Of a DNA stretch of 12,529 bases, positions 1,537-7,775 are shown in pieces. Below the pieces are notes generated by a model. That model was given only the letters and a program-made list of their open reading frames with translations. It searched no databases and was not told the DNA's origin. The translations under genes and the position numbers were made by a program. Origin of the DNA: a virus (Duplodnaviria > Heunggongvirae > Uroviricota > Caudoviricetes); the IMG/VR virus record IMGVR_UViG_2671180699_000002; one strand, given 5' to 3'. Every line of letters begins with the position of its first letter. The first letter of the stretch is position 1.

Positions 1537-1564
1537 GAAAAAACAAAACCCGCCGAAGCGGGTT
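1537..1564 (-). terminator. Rho-independent terminator of the hok transcript
   Basis: On the minus strand AACCCGC-TTCG-GCGGGTT (7-bp stem, tetraloop) is followed directly by TTTTGTTTTTT. It lies about 70 nt downstream of the hok stop. Confidence 0.8.
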
Positions 1565-1632
1565 ACGTGCGGGTGCGTTGAGGATGCCTGACACATCAGA
1601 GGTGGCGAGGGATTTCTCCCCCGCCAGGTCTC

Positions 1633-1788
1633 TTACTCCTCAGGTTCGTAAGCTGTGAAGACAGCGACCTCCGTCTGGCCGGTTCGGATTCGTACCTCGC
1701 AGAGGTCTTTCCTCGTTACCAGTGCCGTCACTATGACGGTTAAACAGATGACGATCAGGGCGATTAACATCGCCTTTTGCTGCTTCAT
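1633..1788 (-). CDS. hokD: Hok-family type I toxin (small membrane-depolarising peptide), 51 aa
   Basis: Hand translation of the minus strand gives MKQQKAMLIALIVICLTVIVTALVTRKDLCEVRIRTGQTEVAVFTAYEPEE, which matches my recollection of E. coli HokD/RelF. ATG at 1788..1786, TAA at 1635..1633, SD AAGGAG about 10 nt upstream. The ORF is under 60 aa and so absent from the supplied track. Confidence 0.93.
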   Translation of the reverse strand: MKQQKAMLIALIVICLTVIVTALVTRKDLCEVRIRTGQTEVAVFTAYEPEE

Positions 1789-2046
1789 AGCCTGCTTCTC
1801 CTTGACCTTTCGGTCCGTAAGAGGCTAATCTCTATGTGTCGCATAGATATGGCCTCAGATTAATGTTAAGCGTCTTGCAGGACGCGTAATGTTAACTGGG
1901 GCTTTTCTCTATCTGCCTTTTGGTGTTCATGCCTGAGACAGATAGCCTCAAGCACCCGCAGTCATTCTACTTAACTAAGATTTCCCCGCAAACCGTTTTT
2001 GTCCGGCACAGTAAATATCCAACTAAACCAATGGCGTTCGCTGTAT
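1789..2046 (-). promoter_or_regulatory. hok mRNA leader region (about 260 nt) with a coupled upstream ORF and a long hairpin
   Basis: Non-coding stretch between the stop of the 59-aa membrane gene and the hok ATG. Contains a 19-codon uORF (1844..1785) whose TGA overlaps the hok ATG (ATGA), and an imperfect hairpin at 1821-1856 that covers the uORF start codon. Confidence 0.5.
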
Positions 2047-2226: not shown

Positions 2227-2455
2227 TATTCCTCCTACAATCAATGTGCAATTACATTTAAACACACCTCAATTTGGCCGGACATATAAATATCTAAACC
2301 AGAAAAAATCACTTACATAGCGTTACAAACTCTTTAGTCTAAATATTCATCGTAAAACATTCCCCATACTTATCAGCCCGTTCTGCGCCAGGTAGCTCAT
2401 TGCCTTATCTGGGAATCTGTAATCAGGTTTCCGGATGCTGGTGGATTTTCGCGTT

Positions 2456-2713
2456 TTAGTTGTTCATAAAAGTGCACAGCTTTAACCAGTTCTTCTGATG
2501 TAACCGGGACTGGCGGGGCAGTGAATAAGGCCTGAATTTCATAGTTCGGCCTGTCGTTACAATCCTCTTTTTTCGGTACATATTTCCAGTCACCAGACCA
2601 CTACTTCCCCTGAAAGTCCGTAACGCCTTTTTTTTCACGTAGCGATATCGCCATGCCACTGTTTTTGCTTGCCCCGCCGTTTCATGCCCTTCCTGATAAT
2701 TAACCTCGCTCAT
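2456..2713 (-). CDS. Possible small, very basic protein, 85 aa
   Basis: ATG at 2713..2711 overlaps the TGA of the upstream 58-aa ORF (ATGA). K/R-rich product. Contains several rare AGG/CGA codons and an A8 run, so it may not be a real gene. Confidence 0.25.
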   Translation of the reverse strand: MSEVNYQEGHETAGQAKTVAWRYRYVKKKALRTFRGSSGLVTGNMYRKKRIVTTGRTMKFRPYSLPRQSRLHQKNWLKLCTFMNN

Positions 2714-2886
2714 TCATCGCCCCACTCATCACAATATGCTTCGACCGGAGTTTTTCCTGCTTCATAATCATCACGCCATGCTTCAGCATCAGCAGCACTG
2801 CCACCACGTAACTCTGCATAGTCCATTAACAGTTCATGCCATTCTTCAAAACTGACGTTGTATTTAGTTGAACCAAAATCAGCCAT
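2710..2886 (-). CDS. Small acidic protein, 58 aa (MADFGSTKYNVSFEEWHELLMDYAELRGGSAADAEAWRDDYEAGKTPVEAYCDEWGDE)
   Basis: Hand-translated. ATG at 2886..2884 with GAGGAAG SD 7-8 nt upstream; overlaps the stop of the 60-aa ORF by 8 nt; E. coli-like codon usage. Below the track's 60-aa cutoff. Confidence 0.5.
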   Translation of the reverse strand: MADFGSTKYNVSFEEWHELLMDYAELRGGSAADAEAWRDDYEAGKTPVEAYCDEWGDE

Positions 2887-3061
2887 TTTGTTCTTCCTCT
2901 TCGTCTTTTATTTCGTGATATGAGTAATTGCAGTAGTTAAAGAAAATATCTTTTGCTTCGTCATGTATTTCATCAGGCGTCGCATCATCATCCACTTCGA
3001 ATTCATCCTCGAAATCTCCACCGGCTATTCCCGTTTCAATAATTATTTTAAACTTTCGCAT
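2879..3061 (-). CDS. Small, strongly acidic protein, 60 aa (about one third D/E)
   Basis: ATG at 3061..3059; stop TGA at 2881..2879. Upstream on the mRNA: AGGAGG, then a 6-bp GC hairpin, then 8 nt, then ATG. Confidence 0.6.
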   Translation of the reverse strand: MRKFKIIIETGIAGGDFEDEFEVDDDATPDEIHDEAKDIFFNYCNYSYHEIKDEEEEQNG

Positions 3062-3068
3062 TTAACTA

Positions 3069-3084
3069 CCGCCCTTTCGGGCGG
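3069..3084 (-). other. GC-rich stem-loop (CCGCCC-TTTC-GGGCGG) between an SD-like AGGAGG and the start codon of the 60-aa gene
   Basis: Perfect 6-bp inverted repeat with a 4-nt loop. Not followed by a T-tract on either strand, so it is not a canonical intrinsic terminator. Confidence 0.6.
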
Positions 3085-3154
3085 CCTCCTGATGTTCTGA
3101 GGGTGCAGAAATCCCTCCGGTTAAGGATTAAATTTTTAACAGAGCTAAATTTAA

Positions 3155-3511
3155 TTATTCAGTTCTGGATTTTGTCGCCCTGCGTATCCGCGCTTTCGCG
3201 TTACGCTCAATCTGAATTAGCTTTTCTATATTTTTTCGCCTTTCCCGCTCCTCCTGACGCAAGAGCCTTACATCATCTGCCAGTCTGGTTTCTCTTTTCG
3301 CCACAGAGAGCATCCAGTCAAATGGCTCCACAACTGCACCGCAGATTTTACAGCGGACCTGACGCTCTTTTTCGTCAACCCGGACAGAGGCGTGATGACA
3401 ATATGGTCTTTCCGATGGCTCATAAAGAAAATTAACCTGATTACGAGGGTCATCCTCTTTTACCGGAAATAAAACGATATTGCTTAACTCATCCTCTGGT
3501 TTTATTTCCAT
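3155..3511 (-). CDS. Hypothetical protein, 118 aa, with Zn-ribbon-like Cys/His motif and basic coiled-coil C-terminus
   Basis: ATG at 3511..3509 preceded by AAGGAGAGGAG. An alternative GTG start at 3568 (137 aa) also has an AGGAGG about 11 nt upstream. Motif YCHH...CKICG; C-terminal R/E/K-rich helix. Confidence 0.65.
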   Translation of the reverse strand: MEIKPEDELSNIVLFPVKEDDPRNQVNFLYEPSERPYCHHASVRVDEKERQVRCKICGAVVEPFDWMLSVAKRETRLADDVRLLRQEERERRKNIEKLIQIERNAKARIRRATKSRTE

Positions 3512-3568
3512 GCTCCTCTCCTTTGATGCGAATGCCAGCGGTAATTGAAGCCTGATAGCTAATTTCAC

Positions 3569-3991
3569 TCACAGTACCGCCTCCTGAAAATTACCCTGAT
3601 AGAAAGCCAGTACACGCTGCATAGCTTCACTCTTCCGGCACTCGCGACAGATTATGTTTAGGCGACTGTCGTAGCGACGTATTTCTCCGTCAGGTGATGA
3701 CCAGATAAGGTCCGGATCAACCACAGCAGGTTTCTTCACCTTTGCCCTCGAGAGTTTTTTGCGGGCGTTTTGCCAGTCCTTACGCGCCTGTTCAGAGGGG
3801 AATAACCCGTAGCCGGAGTTGTATACATCGCCGCTGGCAACCAGCTCTCTTGCGAGAACGCTCATCAGATATCTTGTCGCACCTGTCTTGACTTCCAGTT
3901 GCCGTAACGTCTCACGCCCACTCTGGCGTACGAGTTCAACAACCTGCCCTTTAATTTTTTCTCGCTCTTCTTGTGTAAAAACTTTTGCCAC
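3569..3991 (-). CDS. Hypothetical protein, 140 aa, with probable N-terminal winged-helix/HTH DNA-binding region
   Basis: GTG start at 3991..3989 with AGGAGGG 4-5 nt upstream; stop TGA at 3571..3569. Sits immediately downstream of the O-like gene, where a helicase loader is normally found, but is too short and has no Walker motif. Confidence 0.7.
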   Translation of the reverse strand: MAKVFTQEEREKIKGQVVELVRQSGRETLRQLEVKTGATRYLMSVLARELVASGDVYNSGYGLFPSEQARKDWQNARKKLSRAKVKKPAVVDPDLIWSSPDGEIRRYDSRLNIICRECRKSEAMQRVLAFYQGNFQEAVL

Positions 3992-7722: not shown

Positions 7723-7775
7723 TTTCTGGTGACGTTTGGCGGTATCAGTTTTACTCCGTGACTGCTCTGCCGCCC
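7723..7775 (+). ncRNA. dicF: DicF small regulatory RNA (cell-division inhibitor; base-pairs with ftsZ mRNA)
   Basis: The sequence TTTCTGGTGACGTTTGGCGGTATCAGTTTTACTCCGTGACTGCTCTGCCGCCC matches my recollection of the 53-nt DicF RNA. It ends in a GGCGG...CCGCC hairpin followed by TTTTT, and sits between ydfC and dicB as in Qin. Confidence 0.88.

What the first reader, a model, noticed from the sequence alone, without database searches (positions are those of the whole stretch)
3062..3120. SD - GC hairpin - start codon arrangement upstream of the 60-aa acidic gene
On the mRNA, AGGAGG is followed immediately by the hairpin CCGCCC-GAAA-GGGCGG and then 8 nt to the ATG. The linear SD-ATG distance is about 24 nt, which is too long; folding the hairpin would bring the SD to a functional spacing, as in known structured initiation regions such as T4 gene 38. 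A second 5-bp hairpin (GAGGG...CCCTC, 3099-3117) lies just upstream. This could make translation depend on RNA folding or processing.
Basis: partly seen in the sequence, partly recalled or inferred. Interest (0 to 1): 0.4.

Follow-up and report, generated by a model that had tools for sequence, protein, structure and literature searches.

The report
Hairpin-bridged ribosome site in prophage linker
The strong ribosome-binding sequence, tight GC hairpin and start codon are really there, and they belong to a roughly 65-base unannotated spacer, present in 44% of complete E. coli genomes, that sits in front of several unrelated small prophage genes and most likely gives them a ribosome-binding site that works only when the hairpin is folded, as shown experimentally for phage T4 genes 38 and 25.

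Summary
AGGAGG lies at 3090-3085. The hairpin CCGCCC-GAAA-GGGCGG lies at 3084-3069, with a predicted energy of -12.4 kcal/mol, or -15.5 with the G3085-U3068 pair. The window is a Qin/Rac-like lambdoid prophage, and the gene is DUF7167 in the early-right operon.

The arrangement is not specific to this gene. The same unit occurs 3167 times in 2377 of 5426 complete E. coli genomes and is never annotated. It precedes at least five unrelated gene families. In four of them the 6-9 nt spacer contains no Shine-Dalgarno sequence (SD). Copies of DUF7167, DUF4014 and the xELTK family that lack the unit carry an ordinary SD 4-9 nt before the start. The unit therefore supplies the ribosome-binding site.

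The best explanation is a split, hairpin-bridged initiation region of the T4 gene 38/25 type, reducing 23 nt to about 7 (confidence about 0.55). The unit also marks a recombination joint. Covariation support for the hairpin is inconclusive.

Rivals are a masked SD-like sequence in the 3' arm, or a stabiliser or linker role only. It is not a terminator. The upstream 5-bp hairpin contains an orphan SD.

This is a new member of a known kind, of moderate interest.

The parts
3085..3090 (-). Shine-Dalgarno sequence AGGAGG, directly abutting the hairpin. Its last G (3085) can pair with U3068.
   Evidence: One search gives the sequence. The duplex with the 16S 3' end scores -10.3 kcal/mol. It is the best anti-SD match upstream of the gene, but lies 22-23 nt from the AUG. 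Among 36 distinct alleles the variants are GGGAGG, CGGAGG, AGGAGA, AGGAGT and AGGAAG.
3069..3084 (-). Hairpin CCGCCC-GAAA-GGGCGG: 6 G-C pairs, a GNRA tetraloop, and a seventh G3085-U3068 pair.
   Evidence: -12.4 kcal/mol, or -15.5 with the seventh pair, and an unpaired probability of 0.00 for stem bases. 93.7% of pair cells are standard pairs across 36 alleles, with one G-C to A-U compensatory change. No U-tract follows it, and the terminator scan of 2400-3800 does not list it.
3062..3068 (-). 7-nt A/U-rich spacer UAGUUAA between the hairpin base and the start codon. It ends with an in-frame UAA.
   Evidence: It has no anti-SD complementarity (+0.8 kcal/mol). Spacers before other cassettes are 6-9 nt and also lack an SD.
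2879..3061 (-). DUF7167 gene, 60 aa and acidic. It is the first gene of an overlapping three-gene block with 2710-2886 and 2456-2713.
   Evidence: Pfam PF23768, E = 7.9e-15. RefSeq annotates the same start.
3099..3117 (-). Upstream hairpin GAGGG-AUUUCUGCA-CCCUC. Its 5' arm is part of GGAGG (3118-3114), an orphan SD.
   Evidence: -7.2 kcal/mol. In other phages the same leader GGAGG sits at ordinary SD-to-AUG spacing (about 5-8 nt) before other genes. It is absent where a 70-aa gene precedes the core. It shows no covariation and some disruptive variants.
3067..3129 (-). The whole conserved intercistronic unit: leader AAUCCUUAACC, the first hairpin, the linker AGAACAUC, AGGAGG, the second hairpin, and UA.
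   Evidence: A 74-nt query (3135-3062) gives 3167 places in 2377 of 5426 complete E. coli genomes, up to 7 per genome, always with no annotated feature. Matches before other cassettes end at query position 69, which is window 3067. Upstream and downstream genes reassort freely around it.
3155..3511 (-). Upstream gene, a 118-aa zinc-ribbon-like protein. Its stop codon UAA is at 3157-3155, 93 nt before the DUF7167 AUG.
   Evidence: Its own ordinary SD, AAGGAGA, lies 5 nt from the ATG at 3511. Its stop is too far upstream for a terminating ribosome to reach the hairpin.

Best explanation
The DUF7167 gene is translated from a split ribosome-binding site.

**Proposed mechanism (inferred)**
1. The 30S subunit pairs its anti-SD with AGGAGG (3090-3085).
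2. The very stable GAAA-capped hairpin next to it (3084-3069) stays folded and loops out.
3. The AUG at 3061 then lies only the 7-nt spacer, plus the width of the helix base, from the Shine-Dalgarno (SD) duplex. That is a normal working distance.
4. Unfolded, the distance would be 23 nt, which is too long.

**Wider setting**
This SD-hairpin core is the 3' part of a roughly 65-nt conserved intercistronic unit in the early operons of Rac/Qin/Stx-type lambdoid prophages. The unit acts as a ready-made initiation region for whichever accessory gene follows it. Because it is longer than the roughly 30 bp reported as the minimum for Red-beta recombination, it probably also serves as the homology at which gene cassettes are exchanged.

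**What is shown**
- The sequence anatomy.
- The predicted stability of the hairpin.
- The conservation and portability of the unit.
- The absence of any other SD in the spacer.
- The presence of ordinary SDs in copies of the same genes that lack the unit.

**What is inferred**
- That the ribosome uses the upstream AGGAGG with the hairpin folded.
- That recombination actually takes place within the unit.
For: 1. **Geometry.** The distance is 23 nt in the linear sequence and 7 nt with the hairpin folded. Proven T4 cases go from 22 to 5 nt (gene 38) and from 27 to 11 nt (gene 25), and stem-destabilising mutations reduce initiation there (PMC3014915).
2. **Stability.** The hairpin scores -12.4 to -15.5 kcal/mol and is always paired in the ensemble. 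The SD duplex scores -10.3.
3. **Natural control within the family.** DUF7167 homologues at 61-75% identity have no hairpin. Those in L083-L092 carry GGAGG or GGAG exactly 7 nt before the AUG; L093 has only a weak SD-like stretch.
4. **Portability.** The exact 22-mer precedes DUF7167, DUF4014, xELTK, MQxIKEN and a Q-like gene. In the first four the spacer is 6-9 nt and has no SD. The Q-like gene has an 11-nt spacer with its own GGAG.
5. **Natural control across families.** DUF4014 and xELTK genes without the unit have an ordinary SD (GGGAG, AAGGAG or UAAGGA) within about 4-8 nt of the AUG.
6. **Mosaic joint.** Where the upstream module differs, homology begins exactly at UCAGGAGG, so the SD and hairpin travel with the start region.
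7. **Specificity.** A generic scan of all fetched prophage loci for an SD, an adjacent hairpin, a short spacer and a start codon found essentially only this unit.
8. **Variation.** All 36 alleles still fold (-4.4 to -15.8 kcal/mol). The closing pair occurs as G-U, A-U and G-C, and one G-C to A-U double change exists.
Against: - No experiment has been done.
- Covariation is not better than shuffled controls: about 200-240 of 500 shuffles reach the observed values. Disruptive variants exist, including A.C in 7 alleles, G.G and C.A.
- The loop and 3' arm spell AAGGGCGGU, an SD-like sequence. It scores -8.3 kcal/mol against the anti-SD and sits at the ordinary distance. The 6-9 nt spacing therefore fits a masked-SD model equally well.
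- The minimum-energy fold pairs AGGA (3090-3087) with UCCU (3127-3124), so the SD is predicted to be only 13-33% unpaired.
- The unit is kept before a gene that has its own SD, so it may have a further or different role.
- Much of the conservation could reflect recent spread by recombination rather than selection. Part of the sample was ascertained by exact match to the 22-mer or to the leader.
Confidence: 0.55

Rival explanations
1. Masked Shine-Dalgarno (SD) model. The working SD is the SD-like AAGGGCGGU in the loop and 3' arm, which sits at the ordinary 6-7 nt from the AUG. The hairpin is then a translational attenuator that hides it. The upstream AGGAGG would be a standby landing site, or the hairpin would be opened by a ribosome finishing an upstream reading frame.
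For: AAGGGCGGU pairs with the 16S 3' end at -8.3 kcal/mol. The 6-9 nt spacers fit this model as well as the split model. In ArgO145-type phages the upstream stop codon lies 4 nt before AGGAGG. A 9-codon reading frame, AUG UCA GGA GGC CGC CCG AAA GGG CGG UAG, could carry ribosomes through the hairpin there. The 3' arm varies less than the 5' arm.
Against: Opening the hairpin costs 12-15 kcal/mol for a gain of 8.3. In this window the upstream stop is 93 nt away, the small reading frame has ACA instead of AUG, and no reading frame of 20 aa or more lies on the mRNA strand. No helper ribosome is therefore available. The lower variation of the 3' arm is also expected from G-U tolerance of C-to-U changes in the 5' arm.
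Confidence: 0.17
2. Linker or stabiliser only. The unit is kept because it is the homology at which lambdoid prophages exchange cassettes, or because the hairpin protects mRNA ends from exonucleases. Its position between the SD and the AUG is incidental, and the downstream genes are translated poorly or by another route.
For: There are 141 distinct contexts, with more than 25 upstream gene ends combined with at least 6 downstream families, and up to 7 copies per genome. One contig has a tandem module duplication bounded by copies of the unit. The unit is retained before a gene that has its own SD. About 30 bp is cited as the minimum for Red-beta recombination (PMC3945230). T4-type phages use conserved regulatory cassettes for modular shuffling (PMC2839356). 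Structural covariation is not significant.
Against: Four conserved gene families behind the unit have no other SD, while the same families carry an ordinary SD when the unit is absent. The unit must therefore supply initiation. A linker role does not exclude the split-site role, and the best explanation includes it. A stabiliser role does not explain why AGGAGG always abuts the stem or why the start codon always lies 6-9 nt after it.
Confidence: 0.18
3. Transcription signal. The hairpin is an intrinsic terminator, a pause site, or a boxB-like antitermination site within the early operon. It could instead be a DNA inverted repeat bound by a regulator.
For: It is a GC-rich stem with a GNRA loop. 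GCCC-GAAA-GGGC superficially resembles lambda boxB (from memory). The region lies between the replication genes and Q, where lambda has terminators.
Against: No U-tract follows on either strand: UAGUUAAAUG on the mRNA strand and CCUCCUGAUG on the other. The terminator scan of 2400-3800 does not list it. The operon's genuine terminator after hok has a full U-tract. No boxA-like sequence is visible upstream, and the site is not promoter-proximal. There is no Rfam match. One-sided C-to-U changes would break DNA symmetry but keep RNA pairing.
Confidence: 0.05

Closest known systems
Split translation initiation regions of phage T4 genes 38 and 25 (Nivinskas et al. 1999; Malys and Nivinskas 2009; reviewed in PMC3014915)
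   Same: A Shine-Dalgarno sequence (SD) lies 22-27 nt upstream of the AUG in the linear sequence. A stable stem-loop lies wholly between them, and folding gives 5-11 nt. Here the figures are 23 nt and about 7 nt. As with T4 gene 25, close relatives keep the arrangement and more distant relatives have an ordinary initiation region. Both are phage intercistronic junctions.
   Different: There is no sequence relationship. The phage here is temperate and lambdoid, not T4-like. The hairpin is capped by GAAA. The SD abuts the stem with no gap and shares its last G with the closing pair. The element is not tied to one gene, since it serves several unrelated cassettes. The function has not been tested here.
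PeSL mobile regulatory cassettes of T4-type phages (PMC2839356, PMC4122927)
   Same: Both are short conserved intergenic motifs that contain a stem-loop. Both flank variable genes of unknown function, recur several times per genome, and coincide with points of modular shuffling.
   Different: PeSLs combine an early promoter with a terminator-like stem-loop and act on transcription. This unit has no promoter-like site and no U-tract, and it appears to act on translation.
Mosaic boundaries formed by relaxed homologous recombination between lambdoid phages and defective prophages (PMC3945230, PMC2327257)
   Same: The unit is a short conserved stretch at the joint between independently assorting modules. 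It is longer than the roughly 30 bp cited for Red-beta. The host prophage carries a RecE-like exonuclease.
   Different: Those studies describe flanking homology in general, not a specific recurring element with its own predicted RNA structure and ribosome-binding role.
Intrinsic terminators and intercistronic stabiliser hairpins
   Same: All are GC-rich tetraloop hairpins in a polycistronic phage mRNA.
   Different: This one has no U-tract. It sits between an SD and a start codon rather than after a stop codon. The hok terminator in the same window (1565-1538, minus strand) shows the canonical form.

Membership tests
Split (hairpin-bridged) translation initiation region, T4 gene 38/25 type | A strong Shine-Dalgarno sequence (SD) lies too far from the start codon in the linear sequence (more than about 15 nt). 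| tested here: met
   AGGAGG scores -10.3 kcal/mol against the anti-SD. Its last G is 23 nt from the A of AUG.
Split (hairpin-bridged) translation initiation region, T4 gene 38/25 type | A stable stem-loop lies wholly between the SD and the AUG, and its folding restores a spacing of about 5-11 nt. | tested here: met
   This is a prediction only. The hairpin scores -12.4 to -15.5 kcal/mol, is paired throughout the ensemble, and leaves a 7-nt residual spacer.
Split (hairpin-bridged) translation initiation region, T4 gene 38/25 type | No other accessible SD lies at the ordinary distance. | tested here: inconclusive
   The spacers have no SD. However, the loop and 3' arm form the SD-like AAGGGCGGU (-8.3 kcal/mol), which is locked in the stem.
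Split (hairpin-bridged) translation initiation region, T4 gene 38/25 type | The arrangement is kept among close relatives, while distant relatives have an ordinary initiation region. | tested here: met
   Homologues without the hairpin have GGAGG or GGAG at 7 nt. DUF4014 and xELTK copies without the unit have an ordinary SD.
Split (hairpin-bridged) translation initiation region, T4 gene 38/25 type | Compensatory base changes maintain the stem. | tested here: inconclusive
   There is one G-C to A-U double change and many G-U-preserving changes, but the result is not better than shuffles. Disruptive variants also exist.
Split (hairpin-bridged) translation initiation region, T4 gene 38/25 type | Stem-disrupting mutations lower translation and compensatory mutations restore it; the structure is confirmed by probing. 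| not testable with these tools
   This needs reporter fusions, toeprinting, and DMS or SHAPE probing.
Intrinsic (Rho-independent) terminator | A GC-rich hairpin is followed immediately by a U-tract. | tested here: not met
   The tail is UAGUUAAAUG. The scan of 2400-3800 does not list it. The hok terminator at 1565-1538 has the U-tract.
Lambda-type nut site (boxA plus boxB) | boxA lies a few nucleotides upstream of a boxB hairpin, in a promoter-proximal position. | tested here: not met
   Read directly from the sequence. The upstream sequence is CCCUCAGAACAUCAGGAGG with no boxA-like motif. The site lies several genes downstream of the operon start. The boxB consensus was recalled from memory.
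PeSL-type mobile regulatory cassette | A conserved intergenic motif recurs at the boundaries of variable genes. | tested here: met
PeSL-type mobile regulatory cassette | It contains an early promoter together with a terminator-like stem-loop. | tested here: not met
   There is no promoter-like site on the mRNA strand and no terminator.
Any curated RNA family (Rfam 15) | A match at or near the gathering score. | tested here: not met
   The only chance-level hit overlapping the element is SscA, at 18.5 bits against a gathering score of 60; two other sub-threshold hits (13.6 and 10.7 bits) lie inside the coding region.

The most novel reading that the evidence does not exclude
The unit is a self-contained, mobile 'translation plug'. 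It would be a roughly 65-nt cassette-boundary element that both provides a hairpin-bridged ribosome-binding site to any promoterless, SD-less accessory gene placed behind it and serves as the recombination target by which lambdoid prophages swap such genes. Its function would be analogous to an integron attachment site fused to a ribosome-binding site. The orphan Shine-Dalgarno sequence (SD) in the first hairpin would be kept masked until a new cassette is inserted between the two SDs, as seen with the 70-aa gene.
Probability: 0.25. Interest if true: 0.6.

Novelty: new member of a known kind. Interest (0 to 1): 0.42.

Why it matters
If the split site is confirmed, it would take this mechanism beyond the two T4 genes where it was shown. 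It would then apply to a temperate-phage element present in nearly half of complete E. coli genomes, including O157:H7 prophages.

- **Annotation.** Gene finders and ribosome-binding-site calculators that score linear Shine-Dalgarno-to-AUG spacing would misjudge every gene behind this unit. Some database entries already carry wrong N-terminal extensions.
- **Phage evolution.** The unit is a concrete, recurring sequence at which accessory cassettes reassort. This gives a testable handle on how mosaic joints arise.
- **Engineering.** It offers a compact natural part with an insulated ribosome-binding site whose strength should depend little on the gene that follows.

It does not open a new class of mechanism.

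Tried and rejected
- **Rfam.** Gathering-threshold and permissive searches found no family at the site.
- **Promoter and terminator scan of 2400-3800.** Nothing was found at the site.
- **Small upstream reading frame through the hairpin.** None of 20 aa or more lies on the mRNA strand. The 9-codon frame seen in ArgO145-type phages has ACA instead of AUG here.
- **Species-representative genome scan.** It returned only 2 loci. The element is essentially confined to E. coli and Shigella, so distant covariation is not available.
- **Covariation test on 36 alleles.** The result did not differ from shuffles.
- **Excess of C-to-U over G-to-A changes in the stem.** This fits RNA pairing, but it is confounded by transition bias and possible strand-specific deamination. 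I do not count it as evidence.
- **Per-column conservation of the unit.** It is biased, because many loci were fetched by exact match to the 22-mer or to the leader. I do not use it as evidence of selection.
- **Fuzzy whole-unit regular-expression search.** It timed out and was replaced by anchored searches.
- **Literature search for the hairpin sequence.** No papers were found.
- **K-12 Rac prophage.** It lacks the unit. Qin and DLP12 of K-12 were not checked.
- **L133.** The same 22-mer lies inside a P2-like terminase small-subunit reading frame. I did not follow this up.
- **L006.** An insertion sequence removes AGGAGG and part of the 5' arm. This is a secondary disruption and says nothing about function.

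Full report
**1. What is in the sequence**

All elements are read on the minus strand.

| Element | Sequence | Window coordinates |
|---|---|---|
| Stop of the upstream gene | UAA | 3157-3155 |
| Intergenic stretch | 93 nt | 3154-3062 |
| Leader | AAUCCUUAACC | 3129-3119 |
| First hairpin, 5' arm | GAGGG | 3117-3113 |
| First hairpin, loop | AUUUCUGCA | 3112-3104 |
| First hairpin, 3' arm | CCCUC | 3103-3099 |
| Linker | AGAACAUC | 3098-3091 |
| Shine-Dalgarno sequence (SD) | AGGAGG | 3090-3085 |
| Second hairpin | CCCGCC... CCGCCC-GAAA-GGGCGG | 3084-3069 |
| Spacer | UAGUUAA | 3068-3062 |
| Start codon | AUG | 3061-3059 |

The second hairpin reads CCGCCC (3084-3079), GAAA (3078-3075), GGGCGG (3074-3069). 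The spacer is 7 nt, not 8. The distance from the SD to the AUG is 23 nt, not about 24.

ViennaRNA places both hairpins in the minimum-energy and centroid folds.
- The GC hairpin scores -12.4 kcal/mol.
- It scores -15.5 when G3085 pairs with U3068.
- Its stem bases are never unpaired in the ensemble.

The 22-mer formed by AGGAGG and the hairpin is unique in the window, and none is expected by chance. Perfect GC-rich 6-bp hairpins are about six times more frequent in the window than in shuffles.

Of 20 genes in this prophage segment, only two have their best anti-SD match more than 12 nt from the start. One is DUF7167. The other is Q, whose best match lies 36 nt upstream; I judge that a chance match because it has no intervening hairpin.

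**2. Genomic setting**

The window is a Qin/Rac-like lambdoid prophage of E. coli. The 1.1-kb stretch tested (window 2600-3700) is identical to several sequenced chromosomes.

The minus strand, from about 5874 down to 136, is the early-right operon. In order it carries:
- a Cro-like gene, YdaT, a replisome organiser and DUF977;
- a 118-aa zinc-ribbon-like protein;
- the intergenic unit;
- DUF7167 (60 aa) and two small genes that overlap it;
- hok/sok, DUF968 and the start of the RusA gene (RefSeq annotates RusA and Q just downstream).

The plus strand from 5918 carries the repressor, ydfA/B/C, DicF, dicB and an exonuclease.

**3. The arrangement belongs to a portable unit, not to this gene**

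Eighty-two viral contigs that encode an identical or near-identical DUF7167 protein keep the SD, the hairpin, the 7-nt spacer and the AUG. In seven of them the upstream module is different. There, homology begins exactly at UCAGGAGG.

The exact 22-mer occurs in more than 120 viral contigs. It precedes at least five unrelated gene families.

| Downstream family | Spacer length | SD in the spacer? |
|---|---|---|
| DUF7167 | 7 nt | no |
| DUF4014 (72 aa) | 6 nt | no |
| xELTK (135-277 aa; some GTG starts) | 8-9 nt | no |
| MQxIKEN | 9 nt | no |
| Q-antiterminator-like | 11 nt | yes, its own GGAG |

A 74-nt query covering the unit finds 3167 places in 2377 of 5426 complete E. coli genomes. There are up to seven per genome, and no feature is ever annotated on it. 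In the phage collection it is restricted to Rac-like, mEp460-like and Stx phages. It occurs in both early-left and early-right operons.

Cross-tabulating 141 distinct contexts shows more than 25 kinds of upstream gene end combined with at least six downstream families. The unit is therefore a mosaic joint.

**4. The unit supplies the ribosome-binding site**

Natural controls are available for three families.
- DUF7167 homologues at 61-75% identity have no hairpin. Most have GGAGG or GGAG exactly 7 nt before the AUG.
- DUF4014 genes that are not behind the unit have GGGAG or AAGGAG within about 4-6 nt of the AUG.
- xELTK genes that are not behind the unit use UAAGGA about 8 nt upstream.

Behind the unit, the same families have A/U-rich spacers with no anti-SD complementarity. 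A generic scan of all fetched prophage DNA for an SD, an adjacent hairpin, a short spacer and a start codon returned essentially only this unit.

**5. Most likely mechanism**

The simplest reading is a split initiation region. The 30S subunit binds AGGAGG (-10.3 kcal/mol). The hairpin stays folded. The AUG is then effectively about 7 nt away.

This is the mechanism shown experimentally for T4 genes 38 (22 to 5 nt) and 25 (27 to 11 nt), where destabilising the stem reduces initiation. For gene 25, close relatives keep the split arrangement and distant ones do not (PMC3014915).

The energy balance favours this reading. The alternative requires melting a 12-15 kcal/mol hairpin.

**6. Caveats and rivals**

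- **Masked SD.** The loop and 3' arm spell AAGGGCGGU, which can pair with the anti-SD at -8.3 kcal/mol and sits at the ordinary distance. The 6-9 nt spacing rule cannot separate a split site from a masked SD.
  - In this window no upstream ribosome can open the hairpin, because the upstream stop is 93 nt away and no small reading frame exists.
  - In ArgO145-type phages a stop codon 4 nt before AGGAGG, and a possible 9-codon frame through the hairpin, make coupling conceivable.
- **Covariation.** Among 36 distinct alleles, 93.7% of pair cells are standard pairs. There is one G-C to A-U double change, with A.C intermediates. The closing pair occurs as G-U, A-U and G-C. The totals are no better than shuffled controls, and disruptive variants exist.
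- **Partial masking of the SD.** The minimum-energy fold pairs AGGA with the leader's UCCU, which partly masks the SD.
- **A role beyond initiation.** The unit persists before a gene that has its own SD, so it may do more than start translation. A role as recombination homology is plausible. About 30 bp is cited as the minimum for Red-beta (PMC3945230). T4-type phages use conserved stem-loop cassettes for shuffling (PMC2839356).
- **Terminator.** A terminator role is excluded by the lack of a U-tract. The operon's real terminator after hok, AACCCGC-UUCG-GCGGGUUUUGUUUUUU, shows the contrast.

**7. The upstream 5-bp hairpin**

Its 5' arm is part of GGAGG. In other phages this same leader GGAGG is an ordinary SD at about 5-8 nt from the start of other genes. 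One example is a 70-aa gene inserted between the leader and the SD-hairpin core.

In the window it is an orphan SD sequestered by CCCUC. It does not travel with the core and shows no covariation. I treat it as a by-product of cassette loss or absence. It may serve to mask a useless ribosome landing site.

**8. Verdict**

The element is a shared mosaic linker, not a feature of one gene. It is a new member of a known kind, with moderate interest (0.42).

Noticed in passing
window 3113-3129 (minus strand); L176 835-860; L245; L246: The conserved leader AAUCCUUAACCGGAGG is itself a reusable initiation region. In other phages its GGAGG lies about 5-8 nt before the AUG of other genes, including a 70-aa gene and two others. 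In the window it is an orphan Shine-Dalgarno sequence with no start codon after it, paired into the first hairpin.
   Followed up: partly
L133 11455-11476: The identical 22-mer (AGGAGG plus the hairpin) lies inside the reading frame of a P2-like terminase small-subunit homologue, encoding QEAARKGG. It sits 10 nt before an internal in-frame AUG. This may be an internal start or a transferred fragment.
   Followed up: partly
window 1538-1565 (minus strand): A classical intrinsic terminator follows hokD: AACCCGC-UUCG-GCGGGUUUUGUUUUUU, with a UUCG tetraloop. It lies inside the early-right operon, upstream of DUF968, RusA and Q. Read-through or a separate promoter would be needed for those genes.
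   Followed up: partly
window 7724-7775 (plus strand) and 1786-1957 (minus strand): Rfam matches above the gathering score to the DicF small RNA (76.7 bits) and the sok antitoxin RNA (106.7 bits). These confirm a Qin-type prophage with a hok/sok module.
   Followed up: no
L176 600-2950 (minus strand): One viral contig has a tandem, diverged duplication of the module made of the 118-aa gene, the 70-aa gene and the SD-hairpin core. The two copies of the core lie 1.7 kb apart and flank DUF7167, a 58-aa gene and a 239-aa gene. This fits unequal recombination at the unit.
   Followed up: partly
L006 1940-2003: In three contigs, insertion-sequence DNA ends inside the unit. It removes AGGAGG and part of the 5' arm and leaves only GCCC-GAAA-GGGC before an intact DUF7167 gene.
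   Followed up: partly
proteins P0003, P0004, P0066, P0035; L224 1524-1706: Several database entries for DUF7167 carry N-terminal extensions such as ...SEHQEAARKGGSE-MRKFK. These are translations of the unit itself. They arise where the in-frame UAA before the AUG is GAA, or where the AUG is mutated, and are probably start-site annotation artefacts or pseudogenes.
   Followed up: partly
window 3155-3568 (minus strand): The mechanical reading frame is 137 aa from a GTG. RefSeq starts the gene at the ATG at 3511 (118 aa), which has a strong AAGGAGA 5 nt upstream. The shorter form is more likely. The protein has a zinc-ribbon-like motif, with a weak Pfam hit below threshold.
   Followed up: partly
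window 2456-2713 (minus strand); L001 3875-4118: In a chromosome that is identical over the 1.1-kb stretch tested, RefSeq marks the third small gene of the block and the Cro-like gene as frameshifted pseudogenes. That prophage may be defective. The same state was not checked in the window.
   Followed up: no
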